IMG/VR virus record: IMGVR_UViG_3300029839_000128
DNA: 64,000 nucleotides
Source: a virus
Taxonomy: Duplodnaviria > Heunggongvirae > Uroviricota > Caudoviricetes
Reading direction: 5' to 3' (one strand)
The notes under the pieces were generated by a model. It was given only the letters and a program-made list of their open reading frames with translations. It was not told where the DNA came from and did not search any database. Numbering within the stretch: the stretch's first letter is position 1; every line of letters begins with the position of its first letter. Positions 8,081 to 56,491 of this stretch are shown piece after piece. The position numbers were made by a program, and so were the translations under genes.

Positions 8081-10002
8081 TACATGACCTCTTTCTTTGT
8101 CAAAACGTCATACCACTTTCTCTCATTAAACTCCTGCTTGCGAATTTTTTGGTAACTGCTTACGGGAGTATAGAAGCCAACAACGCGAGCATATGTATCT
8201 GCTACCGGTTTGCCGCAGCTGGGACAAGTGCTCGTTCCCATAAAAGCGTGTTTGTCAGCACACACAGAGATTTTCGTCGTGAACGCGAAGTAAATCACAC
8301 CCTGGCTTGCCACATAATTAAGCATATCCCAAGCAGCATCCTCATTCGGGAAGCGGCTTTCAATATCGATATGGGCGATGCAGCCACCGCCACATTTCTT
8401 ATCGAACAGATTTCCAAGCCGGCACTTTTCCTGGATCGTGCATTTCTCCATGAGCGGAATCCACTGATTGCTGTAGATAAAATACTTGTTCTGCTCGAAC
8501 AAAAGATTGTCTGCTGCACAAATGACACCGGCACAATTTTCAGCAGGAATCATCTCCAGATTGAATGTGAAATCACACTCAAAGTTGTCCTTTACATCAT
8601 TGATCGTGTCCAAAATTTCAGTGGCGAACTCCACGGCCTCATCGGAATACGACTTGTTACCCATTTCGTCCTCATTGATCAGACCGAACAGATCCATAAC
8701 CTCATACATACCGATGCCACCAATCGTACAGAACTGCTTATCCAGTTCCACAGCTCCATCCTGATAGTTCGGCAGAAGCCCTTTTTCAATGTTGCGCTTG
8801 ATTACATGACGCATAGAGAACAAAGCCTTACAATCAAGCAGCACGCGGTCTTTGAGGATATCGATATATTTCTTCTTGTTGAGCTTGCTTTCATAAGCAA
8901 TTCGTACCAGGTTAATGGTGCTCACGCGGCAAGAACCTACGCTCAGAGCAGTACCGCCGATAGAATTGATAAAGGCATCCAGCTTTTTTGTATCGCTAAG
9001 CAGTCGGCAACAGTTGCTCAAAATACCAATATTGTCACTGACAAAGAAGTTGGAATCAGACCACTTGATGTTATGATTGCTGCACCAACGAGCAAACTTT
9101 TCGTCCTGGAACTTTCCGTCTTTATAGTAGAGAGAGTATGTCAATACCGGGTAGGTGAACATATTTTCCTCGCGGATTTCACTCACAACCTCCATAAAGA
9201 CCTTCTGGAACTCAACCAAGTCTTCAATATGGTCAATAGCAAGCTGTCCATCTGGGAACTCAACGCCACCAAACAAAGACTCCAGATACGGACGATCAAA
9301 AATTGATACGTTGGTGAAAGCGCTCTGATCGATACGAAGGAAGGGCTGGTTCAAGCGATAGATAAACTTCTGGAACTGTTGACGAGCATAGTAGTTTGGA
9401 TCTTTCATGTAATATCCGCCATCTACATCTTTCTTCCAGAAATACCAAGCCCAAATCAAAACATTGGGGAGTCCAACCGCGCCAGACTGACGATTAGAAA
9501 GGAAGGAAACAAACTCAATCACATCATCAAAGTAGGTAGTAAGGTGCTTCGGTGCCTGATGGTTATAATGATCGAGAAAGAAAAGTCCTTCTGTTGCCAG
9601 CCTTGTCAAATCATTTGCCCAACAATAGGGGAAATAGCTCGCGGTTGTGCTGTCATTCAAATAGAATCCCTTACTGAACTCCTGCTCCAGCCACTGTTTT
9701 GCTGTGCGCAAACCCCACTGCTTCTTAATGGTGAGAAAAATTTTGTTCAGCGCAAACAGCTTGTCTTCGCTCTTTCCTTTTTCTGTCATAAAGCTTCTGA
9801 TATCTTTATGGTTTGCATTTGCATTAGGATCAATCGAGGCATCAGCCAGAGTGTCTTTATCAACGAAATTGTCGATAAATTCGGAAAAATCAAGCTGACT
9901 GGGATGCAGCCCGTTAATATACTCAAAGTCCTCGCCGTACCGCTTCTTCAAATCTTCAAAACAACGCTCGAAGTCTTTTGACAGTTTTAGAGTAATCTCC
10001 AT
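8080..10002 (-). CDS. nrdD: anaerobic ribonucleoside-triphosphate reductase (class III RNR)
   Basis: 640 aa. C-terminal Zn ribbon CPSCGKP plus glycyl-radical motif RVVGFYTP (C-terminal Zn ribbon plus glycyl-radical motif, typical of class III RNR). Confidence 0.85.
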   Translation of the reverse strand: MEITLKLSKDFERCFEDLKKRYGEDFEYINGLHPSQLDFSEFIDNFVDKDTLADASIDPNANANHKDIRSFMTEKGKSEDKLFALNKIFLTIKKQWGLRTAKQWLEQEFSKGFYLNDSTTASYFPYCWANDLTRLATEGLFFLDHYNHQAPKHLTTYFDDVIEFVSFLSNRQSGAVGLPNVLIWAWYFWKKDVDGGYYMKDPNYYARQQFQKFIYRLNQPFLRIDQSAFTNVSIFDRPYLESLFGGVEFPDGQLAIDHIEDLVEFQKVFMEVVSEIREENMFTYPVLTYSLYYKDGKFQDEKFARWCSNHNIKWSDSNFFVSDNIGILSNCCRLLSDTKKLDAFINSIGGTALSVGSCRVSTINLVRIAYESKLNKKKYIDILKDRVLLDCKALFSMRHVIKRNIEKGLLPNYQDGAVELDKQFCTIGGIGMYEVMDLFGLINEDEMGNKSYSDEAVEFATEILDTINDVKDNFECDFTFNLEMIPAENCAGVICAADNLLFEQNKYFIYSNQWIPLMEKCTIQEKCRLGNLFDKKCGGGCIAHIDIESRFPNEDAAWDMLNYVASQGVIYFAFTTKISVCADKHAFMGTSTCPSCGKPVADTYARVVGFYTPVSSYQKIRKQEFNERKWYDVLTKKEVM

Positions 10003-20014: not shown

Positions 20015-20647
20015 TTAATCAGTTGCTTTCTCGGTTAAAAAGGTTGCCTCCATATCAGCTAAATGCGCCATAGCAGCCAGCGGGCACATTTCATATGCCT
20101 TATTCATACTGCTGTCACCGCCCTTGACTGCTGCATCAAAAGCTCCCATATGGAACCGGATCGCAAAAATTTCGTCTCGCTTGAGTTTGATAAAACTCTG
20201 AAGAATAATAACGGATTTTTCGCCATGGCCGAGAGGGAGCCGATCCTCAACCTTATAGTAAGGTTCTGCCACCCAATCAAAATAGCCACGCTCATCTTTC
20301 TTCGATCCACTATCGCTATATACCTTGACATTTTTGTAGTCAACAGCATAGTAGTTGGCTTTGGTCAGATCGTGAAACAAGGCAACAACAATAACCGATT
20401 CGGGATCAATACTCAAATCGGGATACCTGCCGACCATACCAACCAGGGCATCATAGACATTCAGACTGTGCTCAAGCAGCCCACCACGATAGCAGCCGTG
20501 AAAGCGAGAACTCGCAGGAGCAGTATAGAAATCAGACTTTTCAAGCCACTCCATCAAGGCATTCATGCCATCACGCTTAACAGTGCTACACAAGCTGATG
20601 AAGCGAGATTTCAATGCCTCCAGCTTCTCACCATCTTCCATAGACAT
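20015..20647 (-). CDS. HD-domain phosphohydrolase
   Basis: H...LFHDLTK HD motif. Start MSMEDGEK at 20647 with AGGAGTG RBS (track ORF extends to 20728). Confidence 0.6.
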   Translation of the reverse strand: MSMEDGEKLEALKSRFISLCSTVKRDGMNALMEWLEKSDFYTAPASSRFHGCYRGGLLEHSLNVYDALVGMVGRYPDLSIDPESVIVVALFHDLTKANYYAVDYKNVKVYSDSGSKKDERGYFDWVAEPYYKVEDRLPLGHGEKSVIILQSFIKLKRDEIFAIRFHMGAFDAAVKGGDSSMNKAYEMCPLAAMAHLADMEATFLTEKATD

Positions 20648-20756
20648 TCCATCACTCCTATTTGGTTTTTCTTTTACGGAAATTGTGTGAAAATCTGTTG
20701 CAGCTTTAGGGAGAAATAAGTGTCCCAAGGTAAGTTGTAACTCAGGATGAAGTAGA

Positions 20757-21335: not shown

Positions 21336-22178
21336 TTAGAATGAACAGTCACAAGGCAAAACATCTTCTTCCTGAATAAGTTTTCTTGCTACTGCCCAAA
21401 ATTTTTGTGGCGTTGTCTTTTCTGTCGGGGGCAATGCCTTTTGCTTGAGACGGGCGAACTCCGGTTCCAGCTCAAACAGAAATGCCTGCCGTAAAATGCT
21501 GAAGCCAATCTCTTTTTCTGCTTGCTTTGCTTTTTCCCAGATCTCAGGGTATAAACAGTACACGATAAACCAGTGTTGCTTACCGGCTTTCAGACAGCCA
21601 ATGCAGTTTGCGTGATTGAAAATACTGTAAGATTTCGGACGTTTAATCCCAATCTCCTCAATTTGATAAATAGAGCGATCATTCCAGATCAGCGGATATT
21701 CTGTGCGATACCCCATCACTGCCATAACACCGATGCGACGCCTAATTCTGGTCTGCTCGCTTGCATCAAATCCGTACACCAAAGACACATCTTCTCGGAT
21801 ATGAGGAGGATCGGCAGGGTAGTGCTCAGCCAGCCATTTATGAAATGGCTTAGTCTTTAACTCTTGTGTACAAAGCGCAGAGGATTGAATACCATATTTG
21901 AATGCTTTCAACTCCATACATACATCGAACTGGTCTTTATTTTCCCATCCAGGCATATTAGCGTAGGTAATAGGAACACCTAAATAATCCGAAACCTCTT
22001 GCTTGAAACGCTTAATATCAGGATCTTCGGTGCGAGAACATAAATCATGGTTAAGTAAGATTGTGTTTTCCGCTCCGTATTTCCGAACAATTTCTACGGC
22101 AGCAATCGCTGAGGAATGCCCGCCGGAATAACAGACGATATGCTTCATACCGACCACAACCATCTCGGTTGAGGTCAA
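21336..22178 (-). CDS. PAPS-reductase/PP-loop ATP pyrophosphatase family protein
   Basis: PP-loop variant VCYSGGHSSA near the N-terminus. C-terminal Cys pairs (CIGC, CDC). Confidence 0.55.
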   Translation of the reverse strand: MTSTEMVVVGMKHIVCYSGGHSSAIAAVEIVRKYGAENTILLNHDLCSRTEDPDIKRFKQEVSDYLGVPITYANMPGWENKDQFDVCMELKAFKYGIQSSALCTQELKTKPFHKWLAEHYPADPPHIREDVSLVYGFDASEQTRIRRRIGVMAVMGYRTEYPLIWNDRSIYQIEEIGIKRPKSYSIFNHANCIGCLKAGKQHWFIVYCLYPEIWEKAKQAEKEIGFSILRQAFLFELEPEFARLKQKALPPTEKTTPQKFWAVARKLIQEEDVLPCDCSF

Positions 22179-23185: not shown

Positions 23186-23431
23186 TTATTTTTCTTTAGA
23201 GCTGCTTGAACTGTGGCTAAACAGTAGGTAACACAAGAAGTACAGCGCGTAAGCCTGCCAGTATGTAATAGCAGGGAGGCTAAACACAGCCGGCACTACC
23301 GCATTCCAAAGCAGCATGACCGGAAGTGCAGCCACCAAACCAATCACGGCCACCAGAACAGCAGCAAGGAACACCACACCAATACCATAAATCAGGGTTT
23401 TCACTACATTTCCTCCTCTCTTAATGGGCAT
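23186..23431 (-). CDS. small membrane protein (2 TM segments)
   Basis: Hydrophobic segments. Start overlaps the stop of the kinase-HD gene (operon end). Confidence 0.5.
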   Translation of the reverse strand: MPIKRGGNVVKTLIYGIGVVFLAAVLVAVIGLVAALPVMLLWNAVVPAVFSLPAITYWQAYALYFLCYLLFSHSSSSSKEK

Positions 23432-24332
23432 GAAGATCGCATTCGTTCAAGATCAGAAGACGGTTCCACTCCGCCTCGCCAATCAAATTAACGAGCTTTT
23501 TCATAGTCTTCTGGGGATTATCAGACTTGGAAACCACATAAGGGTACATATGCCAGCGGATCAGGAGCGCGACGGCCAGACGCTCTTTGGTGCTGAGATC
23601 TCCGGTATAGGCGAAGCTATCGTAAGCACCAACGCGCTCATGGTGATAGTAATGAGCAACCTCAGTGGGTTCGCCATGGGAATCATGGAAAACCTTGGTG
23701 TGCTCTTTACCAATATCATGGAGAATAACCGCACGCTTGAGAGCAATATCGGCATCGGGATAGTGGTCGAGCAGATAAGCCCAAGCCACCAAACAATGCT
23801 GACCAATGGTGAACTCGTGGTGGGGATTGTCATGTTCAATGGCGCAAAGGCGTCTGAGAGCATCGTCCAAAATCTCGTATCCGTAGTCGTTCTCGATCCA
23901 GATATCGTCCCAGCCCTCAGACATCATAGGAATGTCGAAGCTCTCATACATTCGCTTAATGACACTTTCAGGAATGGTGCGCTCTCTGGCGGCGTTGTTT
24001 TCCAAGCATTTGTAATAAGGCGCTGCCGTAAAAACACAGGCGGCATTGAGATTGGGAATGCGAAGCGCCCGTACACGGCTCAAAAACTGCTGGCGGCGGC
24101 GGAAGTTGATATTAGTGGCGTCGTAGACCACATTCTTGCCGGTGCGGAGGTCTTCAAGCACCCGGTCATGGAGCGTCTGGAAAACCAACTCCTGATTGCT
24201 CTGGTCGGAGATATTGCCCAGCAGCTCCTCGCGGATCGCGTCGCTGGAATGGATTACGGCGTCGGGCAGCTTTTGGGCATAATAGCTTTTGCCGCTTCCA
24301 GGGAGACCGACCATCATATAGAAATATTGCAT
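23421..24332 (-). CDS. P-loop polynucleotide kinase domain fused to HD phosphohydrolase domain (putative RNA 5'-kinase / 2',3'-phosphoesterase end-healing enzyme)
   Basis: N-terminus MMVGLPGSGKSYYA (Walker A, T4 Pnk-like). C-terminal HD motifs ...H...ILHDIGKEH...H. Translationally coupled to the upstream NTase. Confidence 0.65.
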   Translation of the reverse strand: MQYFYMMVGLPGSGKSYYAQKLPDAVIHSSDAIREELLGNISDQSNQELVFQTLHDRVLEDLRTGKNVVYDATNINFRRRQQFLSRVRALRIPNLNAACVFTAAPYYKCLENNAARERTIPESVIKRMYESFDIPMMSEGWDDIWIENDYGYEILDDALRRLCAIEHDNPHHEFTIGQHCLVAWAYLLDHYPDADIALKRAVILHDIGKEHTKVFHDSHGEPTEVAHYYHHERVGAYDSFAYTGDLSTKERLAVALLIRWHMYPYVVSKSDNPQKTMKKLVNLIGEAEWNRLLILNECDLHAH

Positions 24333-25144
24333 CAGTTCATACCTCCAATCTCAGAAAGAAAACAACGCTTGAGAATTTCTACCGTTGCGGTTTGAAGAAC
24401 TTCCTCCGCGTGCTTGTTGATAATGGGAGGGTAGGTATCCATATAATTCTTCTTGTCGGCAATCATGGTCTCAATGGTCTTGGACATAAGCTCCCGTGCT
24501 TGTTCCAAAGTGCAGCACCCACGTTTGACATCCATCAGGTAATCATGCTGGGCGCTGATCAGGCAATCCTCATAAGGAACGCCGGCAAGGTATCGGGTCA
24601 TAAACTCCCGCATACGCAAGGCGTGATGGAGTTGCTTGGGATCGTAGCCAAAGCGCTCGATCTTATCCATGGTGGCGGGATAGGGATGTTCCATTGCCTT
24701 TTGCTTTTCCAGAGCCATACCGACCAAACAGTTGACCCCGGCATAGTTGTTGTAGCGAGCAATATCCTCTCTGGCATCCAACACAGATTGGAAAAGATCT
24801 TCGTATTTGGGATTGAGGATCATATAGCGCGTAAACAAAATTTCGACAAAATTGACATTTTGCTTCTTGATACAATCGAACATCAAACGAATGTCTTTGA
24901 AGTCTAAGTGCTCATTATTCTCCATGATATGGGTAGTGCTAACTGGCTTACGGTTAAGTACAAAATCAGTGAAACTGGGAAGCACGATCACTTTGGTATC
25001 AATGTCGCTGCCCTCGTAATCCAGATCGTAGTTTTGAGATCCCTGCAAAAACAGCCCGACCCACTCCATACCAGATTTCATAACGGGCACCAGATGTTCT
25101 GCCATCCGTGCATAGATTTTCTTAGCTTTTTCAAAATCAGTCAT
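24332..25144 (-). CDS. pol-beta superfamily nucleotidyltransferase (possibly tRNA nucleotidyltransferase-like)
   Basis: GSQNYDLDYEGSDIDTKV equals the GS..(x)..DxD NTase signature. 270 aa with a helical C-terminal domain. In the operon with the RNA ligase and kinase-HD. Confidence 0.55.
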   Translation of the reverse strand: MTDFEKAKKIYARMAEHLVPVMKSGMEWVGLFLQGSQNYDLDYEGSDIDTKVIVLPSFTDFVLNRKPVSTTHIMENNEHLDFKDIRLMFDCIKKQNVNFVEILFTRYMILNPKYEDLFQSVLDAREDIARYNNYAGVNCLVGMALEKQKAMEHPYPATMDKIERFGYDPKQLHHALRMREFMTRYLAGVPYEDCLISAQHDYLMDVKRGCCTLEQARELMSKTIETMIADKKNYMDTYPPIINKHAEEVLQTATVEILKRCFLSEIGGMN

Positions 25145-25448
25145 CGTATGGCTCCTTTCTGATACAGTCTCGAACGAGTCGCTGATACAACAGTGGGTCG
25201 TATTGTTCCATATCCGACCAGAACATCAGATACTCGCTGTTCTTATATGTGTCTGTCACATCGCCAGAAGCGTCATAGAATCGGCCTCCAATCTCCTGAA
25301 CGAAATGGTTTTTGACTGGCTCATACATCATAGTTCCGCCAAAACGCTCTTGGAGGATAAAGGCAAACCAATAGCAACATCCACATAAAAAAGTTTCCTC
25401 AGCACCTTTGAAATGACGAATGAAATCAAGAACGATTTCTTTATCCAT
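25137..25448 (-). CDS. hypothetical protein (about 103 aa)
   Basis: Start MDKEIVLDF at 25448, overlapping the ligase stop by 8 nt (track ORF is longer). Confidence 0.4.
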   Translation of the reverse strand: MDKEIVLDFIRHFKGAEETFLCGCCYWFAFILQERFGGTMMYEPVKNHFVQEIGGRFYDASGDVTDTYKNSEYLMFWSDMEQYDPLLYQRLVRDCIRKEPYDD

Positions 25449-26940
25449 TGACTTCCTCGGAAACCTCCTGCTGCTCTTCCATATCAGGAGCGGCAGCGGA
25501 TTCTTTGATAATGCCCTCCAGCACCTTGAACGCAAAATTCTTATGCTTGTAGGCAGTAAACTTGGGACGGTTGACAATGCGAACAACCACACCCTCGCGA
25601 ACATGAGACTTTCCTACGGGATCAGGGCCGTCATAGAACTTCTCAGCCTGTTCCTTAACATAAGCACCAGCGTCGATATCGATAATGCTGCCCACATCAT
25701 CGGCGAGCGTAGAATAATGAGGAATATATTCCTTGCAGAAAACAGGAACACACTTGACACCCATCTGCTCACAACGGTAACGCATGAAGTCGGGGGTATA
25801 TTCCACCACATCGCCGTCCTCGTTAGTCATAGTCATACGATAGACATACATATCAGACTTAGGAGCATCCTCATACATCGCCTTGGTATTGACGCTGGTA
25901 GCAGAGAGATCCCCAATATCTGAGGTGGGGGTTGCAACCGGCTGATCACTGATGAACTTACGGCCATTGGGTTCACATCCATAGCTGAAAACAGTGGTTT
26001 TCCCGTACTGTTTGGTAAACTCCTTATCTCCAACCTTTGAATTGCTACCAGGAGACATAATTGGCGTTCCGTCATCAGTAAAGCCTACCACTTCATAGTA
26101 GACAGTTTCGCCTTTGTGGAGCTTTCCCTCAAAGGCTTTCGCGTGCTTCTCACGAAACGCATTGCTGCCATAAAATCCGCCGTCATAGCCATCCAAAACC
26201 ACACGACGAGTGCCAGTCACATAACCCCAATCGTAGATAGGAGTACGTTTGATGCGACGAGCAAGCCATCCAGGAATCTTCTCACTCTCATACAATGCCT
26301 TTGTCAAACGATTGCGGTAAGAGTATCCTTGAAGGATAGGAAGGAAGCCGGTACGCTGAGAAGTTCCGTGCATTTTCAGAGTAATCTCAATGAGATCACC
26401 AGGGCGAAATGCGCTCAGATTATAGGCCAGCTGCTCAGTATCGGAATGCTCGGTAAACAGAGGGGAAATAGGATCGTGCTTTTTACGAACGCGATTTCCG
26501 CCAATACCTCCACTATGAGATCGGCTTGCCTTGGGAATGTATTTCTCACAAATGGTAACACCATTCAAAATGGAGATGGTATCTCCCTCTTTGAGCTTGG
26601 AGATGTCTGTAAAATCTTTCAGACTGGACAGGGGAAGAAACAAACCGTCACTCTTCTCTCCTCTCAGCTTCAGCGCCTTGATATTGCGTTTTTCGGGATC
26701 AAGATATCCGCCGGCAGGATTCCCGTTCTGATCTTTACGACGCAGCAGATCATTCTTCTGAGCAAACTCAATACCCAGCTTACCGTCTGTAGGGAAGTAA
26801 ATGCCCAGCTGGTCAGGTTCCGTACCAAGATCCACAATAACGGTGTTGCCAAAACATTCGCCGCAGAGCAGACGATCTGCATTGGTATGCTTTCGCAGAT
26901 TGCGAATCCTGGTCACATACGCGCAGTACAAATTGATCAC
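25441..26940 (-). CDS. ATP-dependent RNA ligase, Rnl2-like nucleotidyltransferase domain with N-terminal extension
   Basis: Motif I EITLKMHGTSQR (KxHGT, as in T4 Rnl2 KIHGTN). Motif IV-like YYEVVGF. Motif V-like KHKNFAFK. 499 aa. Preceded by the leader motif and AAGGAG RBS. Confidence 0.7.
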   Translation of the reverse strand: MINLYCAYVTRIRNLRKHTNADRLLCGECFGNTVIVDLGTEPDQLGIYFPTDGKLGIEFAQKNDLLRRKDQNGNPAGGYLDPEKRNIKALKLRGEKSDGLFLPLSSLKDFTDISKLKEGDTISILNGVTICEKYIPKASRSHSGGIGGNRVRKKHDPISPLFTEHSDTEQLAYNLSAFRPGDLIEITLKMHGTSQRTGFLPILQGYSYRNRLTKALYESEKIPGWLARRIKRTPIYDWGYVTGTRRVVLDGYDGGFYGSNAFREKHAKAFEGKLHKGETVYYEVVGFTDDGTPIMSPGSNSKVGDKEFTKQYGKTTVFSYGCEPNGRKFISDQPVATPTSDIGDLSATSVNTKAMYEDAPKSDMYVYRMTMTNEDGDVVEYTPDFMRYRCEQMGVKCVPVFCKEYIPHYSTLADDVGSIIDIDAGAYVKEQAEKFYDGPDPVGKSHVREGVVVRIVNRPKFTAYKHKNFAFKVLEGIIKESAAAPDMEEQQEVSEEVNG

Positions 26941-26989: not shown

Positions 26990-28144
26990 TTAAAGAGAGG
27001 TGGTATTCATGGATTTGAGGCTTTTTGCAGCCGCAGCGATTGCTTTGGCAGCAGTTCTCATTTCATCAGCCGTAGTGTCTGTACCCATGGAAATACGAAT
27101 AGTAGACGCAGCCAACTCTTCGGGAATACCAGCTCCCATAAGAACATGAGAAGGGTTAGGACTTCCAGCGCTACAGGCAGATCCGGCGGAAACACAAATA
27201 TCATCCTGATCCAATCGAAGCACCATTGCCTCACTATTTACACCAGGTACGGTCAAGCTGATAATGTTTAGCGCGGTATTATTCCCACCATTGATGGAAT
27301 ACTCATCGGGTTCCATATGAATAGCAAGACTATCAAAGAAGACCTTGCGAAGCGACTGCCATTTATCTTTCCATACGTTCAAATTTTTAACAACAAGCTC
27401 AGCAGCAACTCCCAGAGCGATGATACCAGGAACATTTTCAGTACCTCCACGAATACCGCACTCCTGACCTCCGCCGTAAATAAAAGGTTTTTTAGGGATA
27501 TCACTGCGGATATATAGAATACCAGTCCCCATAGGAGCGCCAAACTTATGGCCGGAAAGGGAAAGCATATCTATATGACAAGCTTTTACATCCATAGGCA
27601 CATGACCTGCGGCCTGAATTGCATCCACATGGAAAGGAACATTATAGGTTTTACAAAGAGTTCCAATATCTTTGATGGGATTGATAGTTCCCAACTCATT
27701 ATTGACCCACATAACGGACACAGCACCAACAATGCCATGGTATTGATCCAGTTTTGCTTTCAAGTCTTCCAAGTCTACTGCGCCAGCAATGTCTACTTTT
27801 GCGAAGATTGGACGGGCATAAGCAGCAGAGATAACGCATTTTTCTACCGGTTCTAAAATGGAGTGGTGCTCTACTTTAGTGGTAATAATAATATGACGGT
27901 TAAGATTTTTGATCCAAGCATTGTTCGATTCGGTGCCTCCGCTGGTAAAATAGATCTCAGACGGATCGGCATTGATCATCCGGGCAACCTGCCGGCGTGC
28001 CTTTTCGATTGCTTGATGTGCCCGCACACCCTGAGAATGAATGCTGCTTGGATTGCCTACATGATCAGGCTGAAGCCATTGAAGCATCTGTTTAAGCACT
28101 TCGGGGTGTACGGGAGTGGTTGCTGCGTGATCAAGGTAAATCAT
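26990..28144 (-). CDS. cysteine desulfurase (class V aminotransferase, IscS/NifS-like)
   Basis: MIYLDHAATTP start. SLSGHKFGAPMGTGILYIRS PLP-lysine motif. GSACSAG C-terminal catalytic Cys loop. 384 aa. Confidence 0.85.
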   Translation of the reverse strand: MIYLDHAATTPVHPEVLKQMLQWLQPDHVGNPSSIHSQGVRAHQAIEKARRQVARMINADPSEIYFTSGGTESNNAWIKNLNRHIIITTKVEHHSILEPVEKCVISAAYARPIFAKVDIAGAVDLEDLKAKLDQYHGIVGAVSVMWVNNELGTINPIKDIGTLCKTYNVPFHVDAIQAAGHVPMDVKACHIDMLSLSGHKFGAPMGTGILYIRSDIPKKPFIYGGGQECGIRGGTENVPGIIALGVAAELVVKNLNVWKDKWQSLRKVFFDSLAIHMEPDEYSINGGNNTALNIISLTVPGVNSEAMVLRLDQDDICVSAGSACSAGSPNPSHVLMGAGIPEELAASTIRISMGTDTTADEMRTAAKAIAAAAKSLKSMNTTSL

Positions 28145-28239: not shown

Positions 28240-29775
28240 TTATGCTAAAGAGCGCATAGCATCCTCTACGGGCTGATAGCGCTCAGTATTGAGGGTTTCC
28301 AGCAGGCACTCATAAGGATCGAGCTTCCCACTCATTACCATTTTGGCAATGTTGGGAGAGAAACCGCTAACCAAAGCCACACCCAGATCGTTCTCCTTAA
28401 CAGGAATGGTGCCGGTGCGCGAATTGACATTCCAGAAGACCATCCGGGGCAACTGGTAGCCAGCATCCTGATATCGCTGAGCGATAGTGTCAAAGAGAGT
28501 GACGCTGGGGCGATTACGGGTATAGCTGTACCGAGATCTGACACCGCAAGTAGCACACCCATCGAACTCCATATCTGAGATGATGAGGATGTTCTGAGGA
28601 AGATCTTCCTGACACATATTGTTCTGGATGGCGGTATCCAGAATGAGATTGAAAACCGCCTCAATATTGGTATTGGCGACCTCATTATGGCGGCGGGCGA
28701 TACTCAACTTCTCGCGCAAGCTTTTACCCTTGCTGAGATCCACCAGCCTGGGAGTCTCGGAGAAGGTGATGTAGTTATCCTTAAACTGACCGGAGGAACG
28801 CTCAGCGAAATAAATTGCCAGAGCATTGGCAACTTCCAGAGCGGACACATCAGTGCCACCGACGCGGACGCTCATGCTTCCACTGCCGTCCGCCACAACA
28901 ATGGTATTGCCACATTCCTGAACAGTATCAGGCAAAGACTGCCACAGCGCCTCCAAAGTGGCGTCAGTACCAGACTTGCGACCATACTGATGTACGATGT
29001 CGTGAGGGAAAAGGGTTCCAGCGTTAATCTTTGCCTCGCCACGCTCGACGCTGGCAAGGAACTCACGACGACGATCCTCGTCGTGACGGAGGAACGCACT
29101 ATTGTAACGCAGATTTGCACGAGAAGGAACGCGCTGATAATCAATCTTATCCCAATCACGGGAAGACATCTGGCGCTCTACAACCTTCAGATACTCGGAC
29201 AGATTAGACAGGGTATGCTGATACTCTCGTTCGGTCATGTTCAGTGCCTTGCACAGCATGGATGCGTAACGACGTGACAGCTGAGAAGAGGATTTACGGC
29301 GAGGCATCCACTTGGCAAGCAGAGAAATACTCTTGTTCTCTTTGGCATCGGCCACATCCTGATAAAGCTGTTGAGCAACCAGAGTAAACACCTCGTCAGC
29401 AACGGCAGTATCCAACAGACACCAGAGGTCGTCCCAGCGGCCATATTCAGGCACCAGCGACACAACCGCCTGAATATATTCGGGATGCTCCTTTGCCATA
29501 GCCTCAATTACGGAGCGGAACAGACGACGCTCGCCCAGACCACCACGAATATCACGGGCAAAGAACAGCCACTTCATAGCGACAATCTTATCCTCAAAGA
29601 AAGCCGTAATGAAACGATCGGCGATATCTTGTTCAGAAGCAGAACGCAGAGAAGCGACCGCGAAGTTGAGATCCAGCAGCTTCCTTCCGGTAGTACGATA
29701 GCCCACAGCACCATTTTCGGTAATAGCGGGCGCACCATCAAGAGTAGTCTTGACAGCAGACATAAAATTGCTCAT
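28240..29775 (-). CDS. DUF2828-like protein with vWA/MIDAS motif (possibly Ro60/TROVE-like RNA-binding module)
   Basis: 511 aa. Helical N-terminal half followed by VVADGSGSM (DxSxS MIDAS). Immediately downstream of the tRNA-like cluster. Confidence 0.45.
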   Translation of the reverse strand: MSNFMSAVKTTLDGAPAITENGAVGYRTTGRKLLDLNFAVASLRSASEQDIADRFITAFFEDKIVAMKWLFFARDIRGGLGERRLFRSVIEAMAKEHPEYIQAVVSLVPEYGRWDDLWCLLDTAVADEVFTLVAQQLYQDVADAKENKSISLLAKWMPRRKSSSQLSRRYASMLCKALNMTEREYQHTLSNLSEYLKVVERQMSSRDWDKIDYQRVPSRANLRYNSAFLRHDEDRRREFLASVERGEAKINAGTLFPHDIVHQYGRKSGTDATLEALWQSLPDTVQECGNTIVVADGSGSMSVRVGGTDVSALEVANALAIYFAERSSGQFKDNYITFSETPRLVDLSKGKSLREKLSIARRHNEVANTNIEAVFNLILDTAIQNNMCQEDLPQNILIISDMEFDGCATCGVRSRYSYTRNRPSVTLFDTIAQRYQDAGYQLPRMVFWNVNSRTGTIPVKENDLGVALVSGFSPNIAKMVMSGKLDPYECLLETLNTERYQPVEDAMRSLA

Positions 29776-29852: not shown

Positions 29853-29965
29853 AACGGCAGGCAGGATTTGAACCTGCGAATGGCGGCTTGGCATTTTTAC
29901 CTTGCTGTTAGCGAAACTTGTTCGCATTTTTATGGCCGCTGTCTTAACCACTTGACTACTGCCGC
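29853..29965 (-). tRNA. tRNA-like gene t1 (113 nt) with ~40-nt insertion replacing the anticodon loop
   Basis: Minus-strand read: acceptor GCGGCAG/CTGCCGT, D arm GTC-AAGTGGTTAA-GAC, 5-bp stem GCGGC/GCCGC enclosing a 47-nt loop (hairpin GCGAA-CAAGT-TTCGC then TAACAGCAA), variable loop CATTC, T arm GCAGG-TTCAAAT-CCTGC. No CCA encoded. Confidence 0.55.
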
Positions 29966-30049
29966 GTATATGTCTGTCTTTCCAGACCGTCACCATTTCT
30001 GCCCATTTATGAGGTTGGTTTAGAATGGTTTAAGCAGCTCTTCCTCCGG

Positions 30050-30162
30050 TGCCGGGAGCAGGACTCGAACCTGCGACCACGGGATTAACAGTCCTAATTC
30101 ATTGCTGATGGCGTACACCCGGTACGCACAATTACGCGCTCTATCCGCTGAGCTATCCCGGC
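30050..30162 (-). tRNA. tRNA-Asn(GUU)-like gene t2 (113 nt) with ~40-nt insertion between D arm and anticodon arm
   Basis: Acceptor GCCGGGA/TCCCGGC, D arm GCTC-AGCGGATA-GAGC. Insertion GCGTAATTGT[GCGTAC-CGGGT-GTACGC]CATCAGCAATGAAT. Anticodon arm TAGGA-CTGTTAA-TCCCG (E. coli tRNA-Asn-type loop CUGUUAA). T arm GCAGG-TTCGAGT-CCTGC. Discriminator A. Confidence 0.6.
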
Positions 30163-30372: not shown

Positions 30373-30449
30373 CGCTCCAGCCTGGGACTCGAACCCCGGC
30401 CCTCCGGCCATACTTCGGCCAGCGTGCTTTCCGCCTACACCACTGGAAC
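30373..30449 (-). tRNA. tRNA-like element t3 (77 nt), non-canonical (A33, mismatched T stem), possible pseudo-tRNA
   Basis: Acceptor GTTCCAG/CTGGAGC pairs 7 bp. T loop TTCGAGT present but T stem has a G-A mismatch. Anticodon-like loop GAAGTAT lacks U33. Confidence 0.35.
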
Positions 30450-30616: not shown

Positions 30617-30728
30617 TGCAGAAGGTGGGACTCGAACCCACGACACATCATTCCCTTTTTTAGATTGCTGTTGGTGTCACATCAATAACACACTTTTATG
30701 ATTACTCTACCAGCTGAGCTACTTCTGC
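30617..30728 (-). tRNA. tRNA-like gene t4 (112 nt) with ~39-nt insertion replacing the anticodon loop
   Basis: Acceptor GCAGAAG/CTTCTGC, canonical D arm GCTC-AGCTGGTA-GAGT. Stem ATCAT/ATGAT encloses a 46-nt loop (hairpin GTGT-N12-ACAC then CAACAGCAA). Variable loop GTGTC. T arm GTGGG-TTCGAGT-CCCAC. Discriminator A. Confidence 0.6.
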
Positions 30729-30811: not shown

Positions 30812-30923
30812 GAGGGAGCTACGGAATCGAACCGTAAACAAAAGATTTCAAGTCTTTTTTGTTTAAGTTTGCTGTAAGTGTCCGCCGCCAATTACACTGA
30901 AAATGTTGCCACCAGACGCTCCC
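30812..30923 (-). tRNA. tRNA-like gene t5 (112 nt) with insertion; anticodon arm with UGA anticodon (Ser-type loop CUUGAAA) but short variable loop
   Basis: Acceptor GGGAGCG/AGCTCCC (one mismatch). Hairpin GTGT-AATTGGCGGCGG-ACAC then TTACAGCAAACTT. Anticodon arm AAAGA-CTTGAAA-TCTTT. T arm TACGG-TTCGATT-CCGTA. D region atypical. Confidence 0.45.
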
Positions 30924-31546: not shown

Positions 31547-32446
31547 TTAATTCATACCGTCAATACTAACAATAGCATTTGAACCGGACACGGTGGGCAG
31601 CTCACCATCCCACTGCTCATACTTAATCTTCTCAATCAGGGTGTCGGTCAAAGAGGCAGCAATTACGCGATTAGCTTCGGCCTCGGCCTCAGCAGCAATA
31701 CGAATTACATCAGCCTCGGCATTTGCCTCAATAATGGCCTTTTCTGCGGCGATCTGAGCGACTTCCTTATCCTTCTCGGCGTTGATCTTGGCAGTCTCCG
31801 CCTCAATATTCGCCAACTCAAGTTCTTGCTGAGCGGTAACTTTCTTTTGGATAGCTGCGGCAGTTTCAGCGTCTACAGAAATATCGGTGAAATTTACGGT
31901 GTCAATAATAATTCCGTACTTATCAAACTTTTCACGCAAGTAGGTATCCAGCTCGGCATTGATCTGGGTGCGCTTATCTCCAAAAATATCCGTTACGGGA
32001 TAATTTGCGGAAACTTCCTGCGTCCAGGCCACAATCTTGGGCTTGATAAAGGTATCCTTGATGCTCTCTCCAGACTTGCCCTTAAACATTGTGAATGTCT
32101 GGGCTACACGATCTTCATCGAAACGATAGGAAAACTCCAGGTTGACGCGAACTGTTTTACCATCAGAAGTGGGGATGCTAAAACTCTCGTCCTTGGGAGA
32201 GTCGCCTTTATCCTCAGCGGTCAGGTAGGACTGTTCAATTCCAATGGAATAGGTTGTGACCTTCTTGGTGGGAGCGACGATGTGCCAGCCCTGAGTCAAC
32301 ACCTCACCGTCCACGCCACCGTTCATATTGTATACGACACCTACATAACCTGCAGGAATACGCTCAGTACAGGTCAGTGTCAAAATTAGGCCACCAAAGA
32401 TGATGATTGCCAGGACGATGGCTCCAATAAAGCCTTTCTTTCTCAA
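31547..32446 (-). CDS. SPFH/band-7 (prohibitin/HflKC-like) membrane protein
   Basis: N-terminal TM helix then a band-7 core (VVYNMNGGVDGEVLTQGWHIV..) and a long Ala/Glu-rich coiled-coil tail. 299 aa. Confidence 0.65.
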   Translation of the reverse strand: MRKKGFIGAIVLAIIIFGGLILTLTCTERIPAGYVGVVYNMNGGVDGEVLTQGWHIVAPTKKVTTYSIGIEQSYLTAEDKGDSPKDESFSIPTSDGKTVRVNLEFSYRFDEDRVAQTFTMFKGKSGESIKDTFIKPKIVAWTQEVSANYPVTDIFGDKRTQINAELDTYLREKFDKYGIIIDTVNFTDISVDAETAAAIQKKVTAQQELELANIEAETAKINAEKDKEVAQIAAEKAIIEANAEADVIRIAAEAEAEANRVIAASLTDTLIEKIKYEQWDGELPTVSGSNAIVSIDGMN

Positions 32447-56003: not shown

Positions 56004-56016
56004 GTTCCCGCCTCCC

Positions 56017-56376: not shown

Positions 56377-56445
56377 AATTCAAACCCCTTTTCTATTCAT
56401 GGCCGGCGGCCTGGTGTTGACCGCCGGCTCGGTGTTCCTGTTCTT

Positions 56446-56475: not shown

Positions 56476-56491
56476 AAAGGAAAAGATTTTT

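What the first reader, a model, noticed from the sequence alone, without database searches (positions are those of the whole stretch)
23421..26940. Operon encoding RNA ligase (Rnl2-like), pol-beta nucleotidyltransferase and a P-loop kinase-HD phosphoesterase fusion: a complete RNA end-healing and sealing set
Gene order on the minus strand is ligase (motif I KMHGTS as in T4 Rnl2 KIHGTN, motif V KHKNFAFK), a small ORF, NTase (GS...SDID), kinase-HD (Walker A MMVGLPGSGKS + HD ILHDIGKEH) and a small membrane protein. Stops and starts overlap, consistent with translational coupling. Kinase plus 2',3'-phosphoesterase plus ligase is the functional equivalent of T4 Pnkp/Rnl1, which repairs tRNAs cut by host anticodon nucleases, and of yeast Trl1, which performs tRNA splicing. 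The kinase-HD domain combination and its placement next to insertion-bearing tRNA-like genes is, to my knowledge, not a described arrangement. The system may heal and seal phage tRNAs after excision of the inserts, or counter a host tRNA-cleaving defence such as PrrC/RloC/Retron-Eco7-like or VapC toxins.
Basis: partly seen in the sequence, partly recalled or inferred. Interest (0 to 1): 0.85.

Follow-up and report, generated by a model that had tools for sequence, protein, structure and literature searches.

The report
Phage RNA end-healing and sealing cassette
A large uncultured phage carries a tightly packed set of genes for mending broken RNA (a ligase, a nucleotide-adding enzyme and a kinase fused to a phosphate-removing domain); this kind of tool-kit is already known from other phages, but here it sits next to unusual tRNA genes that are interrupted by a conserved 40-base insert, which is the part worth following up.

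Summary
Five minus-strand genes with overlapping stops and starts (23186-26940) encode a ligase, a YunG-like protein, a nucleotidyltransferase, a kinase-HD fusion and a small membrane protein. All quoted motifs are present and conserved.

The reading as RNA end-healing and sealing is supported by homology only.
- The ligase has the Rnl5 architecture (N-terminal OB domain, no C-terminal domain), not Rnl2.
- The transferase is a divergent RlaP-like "RNA-ligase-associated" enzyme.
- The kinase matches polynucleotide 5'-kinases.
- The HD domain matches that of CCA-adding enzymes.

The novelty claim fails. HD plus kinase end-healing enzymes next to ligases are characterised (Runella HD-Pnk) or, by my recollection only, phage RM378. 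Isolated Bacillus phages (Kirov, Tsamsa group) carry the same ligase family beside the same kinase-then-HD protein. 62 of 67 related viral loci keep the triad. So this is a new member of a known kind.

The open lead is the neighbouring tRNAs. Three, plus a degenerate fourth, carry a conserved insert with a covarying hairpin. Deleting 40 nt from the anticodon stem of one restores a perfect tRNA-Asn, which would leave a nicked duplex, the Rnl5 substrate. Excision and resealing are untested. Relatives without the ligase argue both ways.

The parts
25441..26940 (-). ATP-dependent RNA ligase with Rnl5-like architecture: N-terminal OB-type domain, adenylyltransferase domain, no C-terminal domain. 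The likely true start is the TTG at 26931 (496 aa).
   Evidence: phrog_968 'RNA ligase' E 2.5e-63. The N-terminus matches the DRB0094/Rnl5 model TIGR02306 at 1.3e-9, far below its cut-off. Motifs I, III, IV and V are invariant in 32 relatives. Foldseek against the PDB: Naegleria Rnl5 at 3e-12, then T4 Rnl2 at 5e-5; the N-domain also resembles Trbp111/EMAPII-type OB folds. The model has pLDDT of only 66. Ribosome-binding site and start.
25137..25448 (-). YunG-like small protein (103 aa), function unknown. It overlaps the ligase stop by 8 nt and the transferase start by 8 nt.
   Evidence: Pfam PF24591 Phage_YunG-like, E 6.4e-8, above the cut-off. Conserved between ligase and transferase in the closest clade, truncated or partial in many relatives and absent from most distant ones.
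24332..25144 (-). Pol-beta superfamily nucleotidyltransferase, a divergent RlaP-like ('RNA ligase-associating Pol-beta') enzyme.
   Evidence: phrog_388 at 6e-13. This is the family that holds T4 NrdC.11 (2e-135), itself a Pfam RlaP member. The window protein itself has no Pfam hit. 6 of 30 close relatives hit PF10127 RlaP; the best scores 25.9 bits against a cut-off of 23. Invariant G35, S36, D47, D49. The AlphaFold model has pLDDT 92.7. It matches phage nucleotidyltransferases at TM 0.74-0.82 and the kanamycin nucleotidyltransferase fold in the PDB.
23883..24332 (-). Kinase-HD protein, N-terminal P-loop polynucleotide 5'-kinase domain (about aa 1-150).
   Evidence: Pfam AAA_33 at 4e-19. The family profile against the PDB gives C. 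thermocellum Pnkp kinase domain 1.8e-21, PSTK 1e-16, Pnkp1 1e-7 and T4 Pnk 4e-6. Invariant K15, D31, R34, D71, R116, R118.
23421..23840 (-). Kinase-HD protein, C-terminal HD metal-dependent phosphohydrolase domain (about aa 165-303, plus the stop codon).
   Evidence: Pfam HD at 1.1e-4, 22.9 bits against a cut-off of 22. The profile matches the HD region of class II tRNA nucleotidyltransferase-type proteins 3WFP-3WFS at 1.4e-10 and TIGR02692 CCA enzyme positions 248-366. Invariant H179, H205-D206, H231, H261, D299.
23186..23431 (-). Small membrane protein (81 aa), the last gene of the overlapping block. Role unknown.
   Evidence: ORF; its start overlaps the kinase-HD stop by 11 nt. phrog_705 and phrog_2169 'membrane protein'. 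Detected downstream of the kinase-HD gene in the two closest relatives (L008, L009) and in L077.
26990..28144 (-). Context: NifS/IscS-type cysteine desulfurase, 49 nt upstream of the ligase.
   Evidence: Pfam Aminotran_5 at 2e-72 and NifS TIGR03402 at 7e-113. It lies directly next to the kinase-HD gene in relatives that lack the ligase, YunG-like gene and transferase (L003-L007).
28240..29775 (-). Context: DUF2828/DUF7788 protein with a C-terminal vWA domain (PHROG label 'RNA-binding protein'). It may be Ro/TROVE-like.
   Evidence: Pfam DUF7788 at 2e-45 and DUF2828 at 9e-38; vWA_Ro60 only at 0.063. phrog_850 at 2.5e-148. No PDB sequence match. It is preceded by tRNA or tRNA-like genes wherever its upstream flank is in view and it closely resembles the window protein; two of the distant lineages show none upstream.
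29853..29965 (-). Context: tRNA gene class A. The body is Gly-like (anticodon GCC) and carries a ~40-nt insert at the 5' side of the anticodon loop.
   Evidence: Rfam tRNA 50.4 bits over the full model, with 46 nt in place of the loop. aragorn -i. Orthologues keep NCC anticodons.
30048..30162 (-). Context: tRNA gene class B. It is a canonical tRNA-Asn(GUU) interrupted by 40 nt between nt 28 and 29 of the anticodon stem.
   Evidence: aragorn -i. One deletion gives a 5-bp stem, U33 and R37 in the window and is shared by every orthologue (one orthologue also allows two others). The in-silico spliced arm equals that of ordinary tRNAs.
30617..30728 (-). Context: tRNA gene class C (GGG-type loop) with a ~40-nt insert of the same module.
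   Evidence: Rfam tRNA 49.4 bits. Alignment and covarying insert hairpin.
21336..22178 (-). Context: PP-loop ATPase, PAPS-reductase-like. It is a candidate sulfur-transfer partner of the desulfurase, possibly for tRNA thiolation.
   Evidence: phrog_424 at 4e-32. Weak MnmA/TrmU hit at 0.003. Conserved downstream in most relatives.

Best explanation
This is a phage-encoded RNA break-repair module. It most likely keeps tRNAs usable during infection.

Inferred steps:
1. A ribonuclease, typically a host anticodon nuclease or toxin, cuts a tRNA and leaves 2',3'-cyclic-phosphate (or 3'-phosphate) and 5'-OH ends.
2. The HD domain of the kinase-HD protein removes the cyclic or 3' phosphate to give a 3'-OH.
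3. Its P-loop domain transfers a phosphate from an NTP to the 5'-OH.
4. If nucleotides were trimmed from the 3' end, the RlaP-like transferase adds one or two back.
5. The ligase adenylylates itself on K189, activates the 5'-phosphate and joins it to the 3'-OH. Its N-terminal OB domain holds the RNA.

The five genes are probably made from one transcript by translational coupling. What is shown: the gene layout, the conserved catalytic residues, the family and fold relationships, and the conservation of the triad across phage lineages. What is inferred: every enzymatic activity and the identity of the substrate.
For: Layout: overlaps of 8, 8, 1 and 11 nt. The scan shows only two weak terminator-like hairpins inside the ligase gene.

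Ligase: phrog_968 at 2.5e-63; invariant motifs I, III, IV and V; best fold match is the Rnl5 nick-sealing RNA ligase, then T4 Rnl2; no DNA ligase or capping enzyme among the significant matches.

Kinase: the family profile hits bona fide polynucleotide kinases (CthPnkp 1.8e-21, T4 Pnk 4e-6, mammalian PNKP 1e-4). The catalytic Asp and Arg residues are conserved.

HD domain: the nearest relatives are the HD domains of CCA-adding-type enzymes. The E. coli version has 2',3'-cyclic phosphodiesterase and phosphatase activity (Yakunin 2004, listed as reference 29 of PMC1920235). Runella HD-Pnk heals RNA and DNA ends (PMC6097658).

Transferase: it shares a PHROG family with T4 NrdC.11. Close relatives reach the Pfam RlaP threshold. 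RlaP adds 1-2 NMP to damaged RNA 3' ends (preprint PMC12776372).

Conservation: 68 of 80 IMG/VR loci with a ligase homologue carry both partners, and 62 of 67 with at least 6 kb of flank on both sides. The median distance from ligase to kinase-HD is 1.2 kb. This holds across several gene orders and down to 57% ligase and 29% kinase-HD identity. The set is also in the isolated Bacillus phage Kirov, and the ligase/kinase-HD pair is in several of its relatives.

Setting: a tRNA-centred island with tRNA genes, a cysteine desulfurase, a PP-loop ATPase and a vWA 'RNA-binding' protein.
Against: No activity has been measured for any of these proteins or for any close relative.

The host and its nucleases are unknown.

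Characterised Rnl5 ligases prefer nicks in duplexes, not breaks in single-stranded anticodon loops (PMC4408790, PMC7261155). The classic anticodon-loop repair scenario therefore fits this ligase less well than it fits Rnl1.

Syntenic relatives L003 and L005-L007 keep the kinase-HD gene next to the desulfurase but have no ligase or transferase within 8 kb. The kinase-HD protein must therefore have a ligase-independent role, or a ligase encoded elsewhere.

The window transferase itself does not reach the Pfam RlaP threshold. Profile comparison with T4 NrdC.11 aligns only the catalytic motif, at probability 12%.

The ligase model has modest confidence (pLDDT 66).
Confidence: 0.55

Rival explanations
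1. The cassette is the joining half of a protein-dependent tRNA splicing or maturation pathway for the phage's own interrupted tRNAs. An unidentified endonuclease would excise the ~40-nt insert. The two exons would stay paired as a nicked anticodon stem. The kinase-HD protein would heal the ends if needed, and the nick-sealing Rnl5-type ligase would join them.
For: Three tRNA genes and a degenerate fourth, 3-7 kb upstream on the same strand, carry a conserved insert module. The module is TG, then a hairpin with compensatory changes in 4 of 6 pairs, then C(U/A)ACAGCAA.

For class B, deletion between nt 28 and 29 gives a perfect tRNA-Asn in the window, every orthologue admits the same deletion, and three separate lineages do too. 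L097 has the analogous case at 29|30. The product matches ordinary tRNA arms. A break there is a nick in a duplex, which is the Rnl5 substrate (PMC4408790).

Class A orthologues vary only at the wobble position of a Gly anticodon (GCC, UCC, ACC). This suggests decoding constraint.

Other triad-bearing lineages hold tRNAs with 47-115-nt inserts in the anticodon loop. Rfam confirms four of them as full-length tRNA matches above threshold.
Against: No candidate endonuclease was found in the island, and no known ribozyme.

For classes A and C, no deletion restores U33 consistently.

L027 lost the ligase, and L021 and L025 have frameshifted ligases, yet all keep the three insert-bearing tRNAs.

Bacillus phage Kirov shows no tRNA gene in the 19-kb stretch around its triad. 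Lineages L081-L111 show no insert of this type in view, apart from L097, which does carry them.

L003 lacks the ligase but has several unusual T-arm-bearing elements upstream of DUF2828.

The inserts go with the DUF2828 gene more closely than with the ligase. aragorn -i has no control set here.
Confidence: 0.2
2. The module serves DNA transactions rather than RNA repair. It would heal 5'-OH and 3'-phosphate DNA ends and seal nicks whose 3' strand ends in ribonucleotides, as part of phage replication, recombination or break repair.
For: The cassette lies 3-10 kb from the replication and recombination block: ERF, SSB, PD-(D/E)XK nuclease, primase-helicase and Pol III alpha.

Runella HD-Pnk acts on DNA as well as RNA ends (title of Munir and Shuman 2017, cited in PMC6097658).

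Rnl5 ligases seal RNA-OH/pDNA nicks, and deletion of DraRnl sensitises Deinococcus to radiation (PMC4408790, PMC5397189).
Against: The immediate neighbours are tRNA genes and tRNA-related enzymes, not replication genes.

The transferase belongs with RNA-specific RlaP enzymes (PMC12776372).

Bacillus phages with the same pair also encode a separate ATP-dependent DNA ligase nearby.
Confidence: 0.1
3. The kinase domain is a PSTK/KTI12-type tRNA-dependent kinase that works with the adjacent PLP enzyme on a tRNA-bound substrate or a tRNA modification. On this reading the ligase and transferase are an unrelated insertion.
For: The single-sequence PDB search puts L-seryl-tRNA(Sec) kinase first, at 3e-8. 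Pfam KTI12 scores 1e-9.

The desulfurase/kinase-HD adjacency is the conserved core in relatives that lack the ligase. The desulfurase also gives weak SepCysS-type hits.
Against: With the family profile, polynucleotide kinases outrank PSTK (1.8e-21 against 1e-16).

The polynucleotide-kinase Asp and Arg residues are invariant.

Fusion to an HD phosphoesterase, and linkage to a ligase in 73 of 80 loci, fit end-healing.

The PLP enzyme is a clear NifS/IscS (7e-113).
Confidence: 0.05

Closest known systems
RNA ligase / 'polynucleotide kinase' / nucleotidyltransferase genes of isolated Bacillus phages (Kirov, vB_BcoS-136, Thrax1/3, PBC2; Tsamsa group)
   Same: The ligase family is the same (46-48% identity over 96-99% of the length). 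It lies immediately upstream of a protein with the same kinase-then-HD order (27-31% identity, full length). In Kirov, a phrog_388-type transferase gene lies two genes upstream of the ligase; in Thrax4, whose adjacent ligase is Rnl1-type, it lies four genes upstream.
   Different: The Bacillus phage versions have no YunG-like gene between the ligase and the transferase. No desulfurase, DUF2828 gene or tRNA gene is nearby. Some members (Thrax4) pair the kinase-HD protein with an Rnl1-type ligase instead. None has been studied biochemically, as far as the searched literature shows.
Runella slithyformis HD-Pnk with its upstream ligase gene (Munir and Shuman 2017; PMC6097658), and the phage RM378 HD plus kinase gene
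   Same: One polypeptide combines a P-loop 5'-kinase with an HD 2',3'-phosphoesterase. In Runella the ligase ORF overlaps the healing-enzyme ORF. The kinase domains are homologous (hhalign probability 98.9% to RM378 p110).
   Different: The domain order is reversed. Those enzymes have HD at the N-terminus and kinase at the C-terminus. Here the kinase is N-terminal. The Runella cluster adds Tpt1 and a methyltransferase-HIT protein, and its ligase sealed none of the substrates tested. That the RM378 protein is a characterised kinase/phosphatase is from my memory, not from a paper read here.
Rnl5 nick-sealing RNA ligases (Deinococcus DraRnl, Naegleria NgrRnl)
   Same: The domain plan is the same: an N-terminal domain, an adenylyltransferase domain, and no C-terminal appendage. 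NgrRnl is the best structural match, at 3e-12. The N-terminus matches the DRB0094 family model. Phage homologues of this family are already recorded (PMC4408790).
   Different: The window protein is about 150 residues longer, with variable insertions. It scores far below the family cut-off (37 bits against 151). Sequence similarity to NgrRnl is marginal (E 0.04). Substrate preference is untested.
RlaP nucleotidyltransferases (Pfam PF10127; P. fluorescens and P. aeruginosa RlaP, T4 NrdC.11)
   Same: It has a pol-beta fold with GS...SDxD, is encoded beside RNA ligases, and shares a PHROG family with NrdC.11.
   Different: The window protein misses the Pfam threshold. Only the N-terminal catalytic half aligns. 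The characterised RlaPs sit in RtcB/RtcA operons (PMC12776372).
T4 Pnkp with Rnl1/Rnl2, and bacterial Pnkp/Hen1
   Same: The logic is the same: 5' kinase plus 3' phosphoesterase plus ATP-dependent ligase. The kinase domains are homologous.
   Different: The phosphoesterase here is an HD domain. T4 uses a DxDxT acid phosphatase and CthPnkp a calcineurin-type one. The ligase is Rnl5-like, not Rnl1 or Rnl4. No Hen1 methyltransferase was seen.
Fungal and plant tRNA ligase Trl1 (tRNA splicing)
   Same: It would supply kinase, cyclic-phosphate processing and ligase activities to join tRNA exons.
   Different: Trl1 is one polypeptide with a 2H cyclic phosphodiesterase. It leaves a 2'-phosphate that needs Tpt1. 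Here there are separate proteins with an HD domain, and no Tpt1 was noticed. The whole window was not scanned for one.

Membership tests
Covalent nucleotidyltransferase superfamily, ATP-dependent RNA ligases | Motif I KxxG lysine nucleophile, plus motifs III, IV and V | tested here: met
   K189 (KMHGTS), E283, E449-G450 and K465/K467 are invariant or at least 90% conserved in 32 relatives. phrog_968 at 2.5e-63. Pfam RNA_ligase scores only 20.4 bits against a cut-off of 27.
Rnl5 (DraRnl/NgrRnl) | Signature N-terminal domain preceding the nucleotidyltransferase domain, with no C-terminal appendage | tested here: met
   Motif V lies 32 residues from the C-terminus. The N-terminal ~130 aa is predicted as a beta-rich OB-like domain. 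The whole-length Foldseek top hits are all NgrRnl, at 3e-12. Model confidence is moderate (pLDDT 66).
Rnl5 (DraRnl/NgrRnl) | Reaches the curated family model (TIGR02306 RNA_lig_DRB0094) | tested here: not met
   37.4 bits against a cut-off of 151. Only residues 14-196 align. It is therefore a distant relative or sister family, not an equivalog.
Rnl5 (DraRnl/NgrRnl) | Seals 3'-OH/5'-PO4 nicks in duplexes whose 3'-OH strand is RNA | not testable with these tools
   This needs purified protein and nicked duplex substrates.
Rnl2 (T4 Rnl2, REL1) | C-terminal domain appended to the nucleotidyltransferase domain | tested here: not met
   The protein ends shortly after motif V. Rnl2 matches cover only the nucleotidyltransferase domain (Foldseek 5e-5; profile E 0.035).
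RlaP (PF10127) | Reaches the Pfam gathering score | tested here: inconclusive
   The window protein has no hit. 6 of 30 relatives at 54-84% identity to the window protein hit at E below 0.1; the best scores 25.9 bits against a cut-off of 23.
RlaP (PF10127) | Pol-beta catalytic signature GS...(S)DxD and a third carboxylate, in a KNTase-like two-domain fold | tested here: met
   G35, S36, D47, D49, D81 and D84 are invariant. The model has pLDDT 92.7. It matches KNTase at 1.5e-6 and phage nucleotidyltransferases at TM 0.74-0.82. It shares PHROG 388 with T4 NrdC.11.
RlaP (PF10127) | Gene neighbourhood with RNA ligases, the feature the family is named after | tested here: met
   73 of 80 ligase loci hold a homologue within the fetched flanks (at most 10 kb each side).
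Polynucleotide 5'-hydroxyl kinases (T4 Pnk / CthPnkp clade) | P-loop GxxGxGKS, a catalytic Asp that activates the 5'-OH, and Arg contacts | tested here: met
   K15/S16, D31, R34, D71 and R116/R118 are invariant. Profile E-values are 1.8e-21 to CthPnkp kinase, 4e-6 to T4 Pnk and 1e-4 to mammalian PNKP.
HD-domain phosphohydrolases acting on RNA 2',3' ends (CCA-enzyme HD, HD-Pnk) | H...HD...H...H...D metal-binding residues | tested here: met
   H179, H205-D206, H231, H261 and D299 are invariant. Pfam HD is just above its cut-off. The nearest solved relatives are class II tRNA nucleotidyltransferase-type proteins, at 1.4e-10.
HD-Pnk (Runella / RM378 type) | N-terminal HD domain followed by a C-terminal kinase domain | tested here: not met
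   Here the kinase is residues 1-150 and HD is residues 165-303. In RM378 p110 the kinase is residues 187-335. The components are the same in the opposite order.
T4 Pnkp | C-terminal DxDxT (HAD-type) 3'-phosphatase | tested here: not met
   The C-terminal domain is an HD domain, and there is no HAD match.
Trl1-type tRNA splicing ligase | Ligase, kinase and 2H cyclic phosphodiesterase in one polypeptide, with a Tpt1 partner | tested here: not met
   The proteins are separate, and an HD domain stands in place of a 2H domain. A Tpt1/KptA gene was not looked for across the whole window.

The most novel reading that the evidence does not exclude
A bacteriophage lineage splices its own tRNAs by a protein-based cut-heal-seal route. 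Canonical tRNA genes are interrupted, at positions 26/27 to 32/33 on the 5' side of the anticodon arm, by a conserved ~40-nt module (a covarying hairpin plus ACAGCAA). An unknown endonuclease would remove the module. The exons would remain base-paired as a nicked anticodon stem. That nick would be the long-sought natural substrate of an Rnl5-type nick-sealing ligase, with the kinase-HD protein and the RlaP-like transferase preparing the ends. More broadly, phages with this triad may tolerate or exploit tRNA genes that carry inserts, including tRNAs nested inside tRNAs.
Probability: 0.2. Interest if true: 0.85.

Novelty: new member of a known kind. Interest (0 to 1): 0.42.

Why it matters
As an RNA repair cassette it adds little. 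Ligase plus kinase plus phosphoesterase plus RlaP sets are catalogued in phages and bacteria, and close homologues sit annotated in isolated Bacillus phages.

Two points are useful.
- The kinase-then-HD protein is a very common family: 1,167 proteins at E of 1e-5 or better. No paper I found or could open describes its biochemistry, and it has the reverse domain order of the studied HD-Pnk.
- The physiological substrates of Rnl5 ligases are explicitly unknown (PMC4408790, PMC5397189). Here an Rnl5-like ligase is linked to tRNA genes, one of which is interrupted inside a stem. If that insert were cut out, a nicked duplex would remain.

That gives a concrete, testable candidate substrate. If it holds, it would be the first protein-dependent tRNA splicing in a bacterial virus.

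Tried and rejected
Searches and comparisons that gave nothing.
- Nucleotide search of the cassette against GenBank phages found no match. Only protein-level relatives exist.
- Single-sequence and profile searches of the transferase against the PDB gave nothing meaningful.
- hhalign of the transferase family against T4 NrdC.11 aligned only 32 columns, at probability 12%. I relied on PHROG, Pfam in relatives, and fold instead.
- The PfRlaP crystal structure did not appear among the PDB matches.
- DUF2828 gave no Ro60 match in the PDB and only 0.063 to vWA_Ro60. The Ro/TROVE label stays a lead, not a test.
- Rfam, at both gathering and E-value thresholds, found no ribozyme or Y RNA in the tRNA region.
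- Pfam and PHROG scans of 20 neighbouring ORFs looked for a nuclease that could cut out the inserts. They found a Band 7/SPFH protein, an HTH plus M78 peptidase pair and a second HD protein, but no endonuclease.
- Literature searches for short protein-spliced tRNA introns in phages, and for DUF2828, found nothing relevant.
- The Burroughs and Aravind 2016 and Munir and Shuman 2017 papers are not held. They are cited only through papers that describe them.

Ideas considered and rejected.
- I tried to find one deletion that restores a canonical anticodon arm in all three tRNA classes. It works cleanly only for class B and for two L097 genes. Classes A and C stay ambiguous.
- I considered that the inserts are simply partners of the DUF2828 protein, like YrlA/Y RNA. 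The topology differs from YrlA because the acceptor ends are free. The idea is not excluded.
- The initial impression that the ligase and transferase are a lineage-specific insertion was revised once 80 ligase loci showed that the triad is the conserved unit.

Full report
**What is in the window**

Between 23186 and 26940, five minus-strand ORFs follow one another with overlapping stops and starts.
- Ligase, 25441-26940.
- A 103-aa ORF, 25137-25448.
- A 270-aa nucleotidyltransferase, 24332-25144.
- A 303-aa kinase-HD protein, 23421-24332.
- An 81-aa membrane protein, 23186-23431.

The overlaps are 8, 8, 1 and 11 nt. The ligase most likely starts at the TTG at 26931. That codon lies 7 nt after an AAAGGAG ribosome-binding site, and relatives begin MYCAYV. 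The consensus scan gives two weak terminator-like hairpins inside the ligase gene. The first clearly G+C-rich one on this strand lies further downstream at 22277-22264.

**The ligase**

It belongs to a very large family. All 8,000 candidates that were scored passed E of 0.001. PHROGs labels the family RNA ligase (phrog_968, 2.5e-63). Motifs I (K189), III (E283), IV (E449) and V (K465, K467) are invariant or nearly so.

The protein ends about 30 residues after motif V, so it has no C-terminal domain. Its N-terminal ~130 residues match the N-terminus of the DRB0094/Rnl5 model, at 1.3e-9 but far below the cut-off. They also match NgrRnl weakly.

An AlphaFold model has moderate quality (pLDDT 66). 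All its top PDB matches, over the whole length, are Naegleria Rnl5 (3e-12). T4 Rnl2 follows, over the nucleotidyltransferase domain only (5e-5). The N-domain also resembles Trbp111/EMAPII-type tRNA-binding OB folds.

So the ligase has the Rnl5 architecture, not the Rnl2 one. It is a distant relative, not an equivalog. Rnl5 enzymes seal nicks in duplexes whose 3'-OH strand is RNA. Their natural substrates are unknown (PMC4408790, PMC7261155, PMC5397189).

**The nucleotidyltransferase**

The window protein has no Pfam hit. It does match phrog_388 (6e-13). That family contains T4 NrdC.11 (2e-135), which is itself a Pfam RlaP member (4.6e-12). Of 30 close relatives, 6 hit RlaP, and the best is above the gathering score.

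The catalytic GS...SDxD residues are invariant. A confident model (pLDDT 92.7) has the kanamycin-nucleotidyltransferase two-domain fold. It superposes on phage nucleotidyltransferases at TM 0.74-0.82.

RlaP means 'RNA ligase-associating Pol-beta'. A 2025 preprint shows that two Pseudomonas RlaPs add one or two NMPs to damaged RNA 3' ends. It proposes that they restore nucleotides removed by nucleases such as RloC (PMC12776372; also PMC7824862). I file this protein as RlaP-like, with membership not fully met.

**The kinase-HD protein**

Residues 1-150 form a P-loop kinase (AAA_33, 4e-19). With a family profile, the best solved relatives are:
- the C. thermocellum Pnkp kinase domain (1.8e-21);
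- PSTK (1e-16);
- Pnkp1 (1e-7);
- T4 Pnk (4e-6);
- mammalian PNKP (1e-4).

The polynucleotide-kinase residues K15, D31, R34, D71 and R116/R118 are invariant.

Residues 165-303 form an HD domain, with H179, H205-D206, H231, H261 and D299 invariant. Its nearest relatives are the HD regions of class II tRNA nucleotidyltransferase-type proteins (1.4e-10; TIGR02692). The E. coli CCA-enzyme HD domain is a 2',3'-cyclic phosphodiesterase and phosphatase (Yakunin 2004, cited in PMC1920235). Nothing points to a dNTPase.

**Is the arrangement new? No.**

- Runella slithyformis HD-Pnk is a characterised bifunctional end-healing enzyme. Its gene is overlapped by an upstream ligase gene (PMC6097658).
- Phage RM378 has an HD plus kinase gene. 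I recall that its product is a characterised kinase/phosphatase, but I did not read that paper here. Both of these have HD first and kinase second.
- The order seen here, kinase first, is found full-length in 37 GenBank phage records, mostly large Bacillus siphoviruses. There it is annotated 'polynucleotide kinase' and usually abuts an RNA ligase.
- Kirov, vB_BcoS-136, Thrax1/3 and PBC2 carry the same ligase family (46-48% identity) directly upstream of it. In Kirov, a phrog_388-type transferase gene lies two genes further up.
- In IMG/VR, 68 of 80 loci with a ligase homologue carry both partners. The figure is 62 of 67 where flanks allow. The median distance from ligase to kinase-HD is 1.2 kb. 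This holds in several gene orders and down to about 30% kinase-HD identity.

The triad is thus a conserved functional unit, and this window is a new member of it. The nearest relative is IMG/VR UViG 3300045988_147693, a 123-kb contig with 97-100% protein identity across the 13 genes compared.

**How it most likely works**

The best-supported mechanism is the standard heal-and-seal pathway.
1. The HD domain converts 2',3'-cyclic or 3'-phosphate ends to 3'-OH.
2. The kinase phosphorylates the 5'-OH.
3. The RlaP-like enzyme replaces lost 3' nucleotides.
4. The ligase joins the ends.

The setting points to tRNA as the substrate. Upstream on the same strand lie a NifS-type cysteine desulfurase, a DUF2828/vWA 'RNA-binding' protein and a run of tRNA genes. 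Downstream lies a PP-loop ATPase that may use the desulfurase's sulfur.

All enzymatic steps are inferred. I put 0.55 on repair of nuclease-damaged tRNA as the physiological role.

Two facts weaken it.
- Rnl5-type ligases prefer duplex nicks to loop breaks.
- More distant syntenic relatives (L003, L005-L007) keep the kinase-HD gene beside the desulfurase with no ligase or transferase within 8 kb.

**The neighbouring tRNAs**

Rfam finds full-length tRNA matches of 113 and 112 nt in which 46 nt replace the 7-nt anticodon loop. Intron-tolerant ARAGORN finds three such genes: 29853-29965, 30048-30162 and 30617-30728. A degenerate fourth lies near 30814-30923.

The inserts share one module: TG, a 5-7 bp hairpin, then C(U/A)ACAGCAA and an A-rich tail. 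Three orthologous classes recur in every close relative. RNAalifold recovers the hairpin, with compensatory changes in 4 of 6 pairs.

For class B, I enumerated all ways of joining the flanks. One solution, removal of 40 nt between positions 28 and 29 of the anticodon stem, gives a 5-bp stem with U33 and R37, and every orthologue shares it. It yields tRNA-Asn(GUU); some orthologues have Lys or Ser anticodons. It is the only solution in the window and in all but one orthologue. The same solution holds in three further lineages, and an analogous 29|30 solution holds in L097. The joined sequence matches the anticodon arm of ordinary uninterrupted tRNAs.

For classes A and C the stem is intact and the insert lies at the 5' edge of the loop. 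Class A keeps Gly anticodons that differ only at the wobble base. No deletion restores U33 consistently.

**Does the cassette process these tRNAs?**

In favour:
- proximity on the same strand;
- an excision at 28|29 would leave a nicked duplex, which is the Rnl5 substrate;
- other triad-bearing lineages hold tRNAs with 47-115-nt inserts in the anticodon loop, four of which Rfam confirms as full-length tRNA matches above threshold;
- in one related locus Rfam places a complete tRNA inside such an insert (L094 2517-2588).

Against:
- no endonuclease or ribozyme was found;
- L027 has lost the ligase, and L021 and L025 have frameshifted ligases, yet all keep the inserts;
- Kirov, within the 19 kb examined, and all but one of the distant lineages have the triad with no such tRNA in view;
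- L003 has odd T-arm-bearing elements but no ligase;
- the inserts go with the DUF2828 gene more closely than with the ligase;
- there is no control for how often intron-tolerant tRNA detection finds such genes in phages that lack the triad.

I rate this reading at about 0.2. It is the reading that would matter.

**Verdict**

- The functional interpretation is supported by homology.
- 'Rnl2-like' should read 'Rnl5-like'.
- The nucleotidyltransferase is RlaP-like.
- The claim of an undescribed arrangement is not supported.
- The cassette is a new member of a known kind, of moderate interest on its own.
- The interrupted tRNA genes beside it are the unusual feature and deserve their own follow-up.

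Noticed in passing
window 29853-29965, 30048-30162, 30617-30728 (minus strand); possible fourth copy about 30814-30923: These tRNA genes are interrupted on the 5' side of the anticodon arm by a conserved ~40-nt module: TG, a covarying hairpin, then C(U/A)ACAGCAA. Class B becomes a perfect tRNA-Asn(GUU) if 40 nt are removed between stem positions 28 and 29. No known ribozyme or intron family matches.
   Followed up: partly
L094 2480-2631; also L086 2714-2836, L090 248-438, L093 2450-2581, L097 18331-18463, L099 6231-6392: In other phage lineages with the same triad, tRNAs in arrays carry 47-115-nt inserts within or next to the anticodon. Rfam places a complete tRNA at L094 2517-2588, inside one such insert; read by eye, it has a CUA anticodon and the outer anticodon CCA could double as its 3' CCA. 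Others look like acceptor/T-arm minihelices that end in ...CACCA.
   Followed up: partly
window 28240-29775; loci L003, L059, L074-L076, L079, L082, L097, L106-L107, L110: The DUF2828/DUF7788-vWA gene (PHROG label 'RNA-binding protein') has a tRNA or tRNA-like gene just upstream in each of the loci listed here. In L101 and L111 no tRNA was detected upstream. This fits a Ro/Y-RNA-like protein-RNA pair, or simply one operon. Similarity to Ro60 could not be demonstrated here.
   Followed up: partly
window 26990-28144 and 21336-22178; L003-L007: A NifS/IscS-type cysteine desulfurase and a PAPS-reductase-like PP-loop ATPase flank the cassette. In relatives that lack the ligase and transferase, the desulfurase lies directly beside the kinase-HD gene. 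This suggests a phage sulfur-transfer (tRNA thiolation?) function. The DndA model also scores well (1e-93).
   Followed up: no
L027 8390-8880; L021 7658-9048; L025 7641-9010; L011/L052 about 9480-10000: The cassette varies naturally. The ligase is deleted in L027. It is split by apparent frameshifts in L021 and L025. The transferase is replaced in L011/L052. The interrupted tRNAs are retained in all of them.
   Followed up: partly
window 31547-32446 (minus strand): A Band 7/SPFH-domain protein (Pfam 2e-26) is encoded immediately upstream of the tRNA array.
   Followed up: no
window 30373-30449 (minus strand): A G+C-rich (67%) tRNA-like sequence is called tRNA-Thr(AGU) by ARAGORN. It does not reach the Rfam tRNA threshold, and its best Rfam match is a weak mascRNA-like hit at 21.6 bits.
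   Followed up: no
L003 3817-5184: The 1.4-kb non-coding stretch upstream of DUF2828 in a ligase-less relative holds several T-arm-like motifs. It also has repeated 'GGAAAGAC' hairpins followed by AACAUG. This looks like a different set of tRNA-like RNAs.
   Followed up: no
window 20015-20728 (minus strand): A second, stand-alone HD-domain protein (237 aa, Pfam HD 6e-5) lies between the island and the recombination genes. A 200-aa counterpart with a weak HD hit is called in L003 (11121-11723).
   Followed up: no
window 56001-58000 and 58000-64000: G+C jumps to 0.62 in one 2-kb bin, against about 0.45 elsewhere. GC skew changes sign after about 58 kb, so the strand bias or module changes there.
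   Followed up: no
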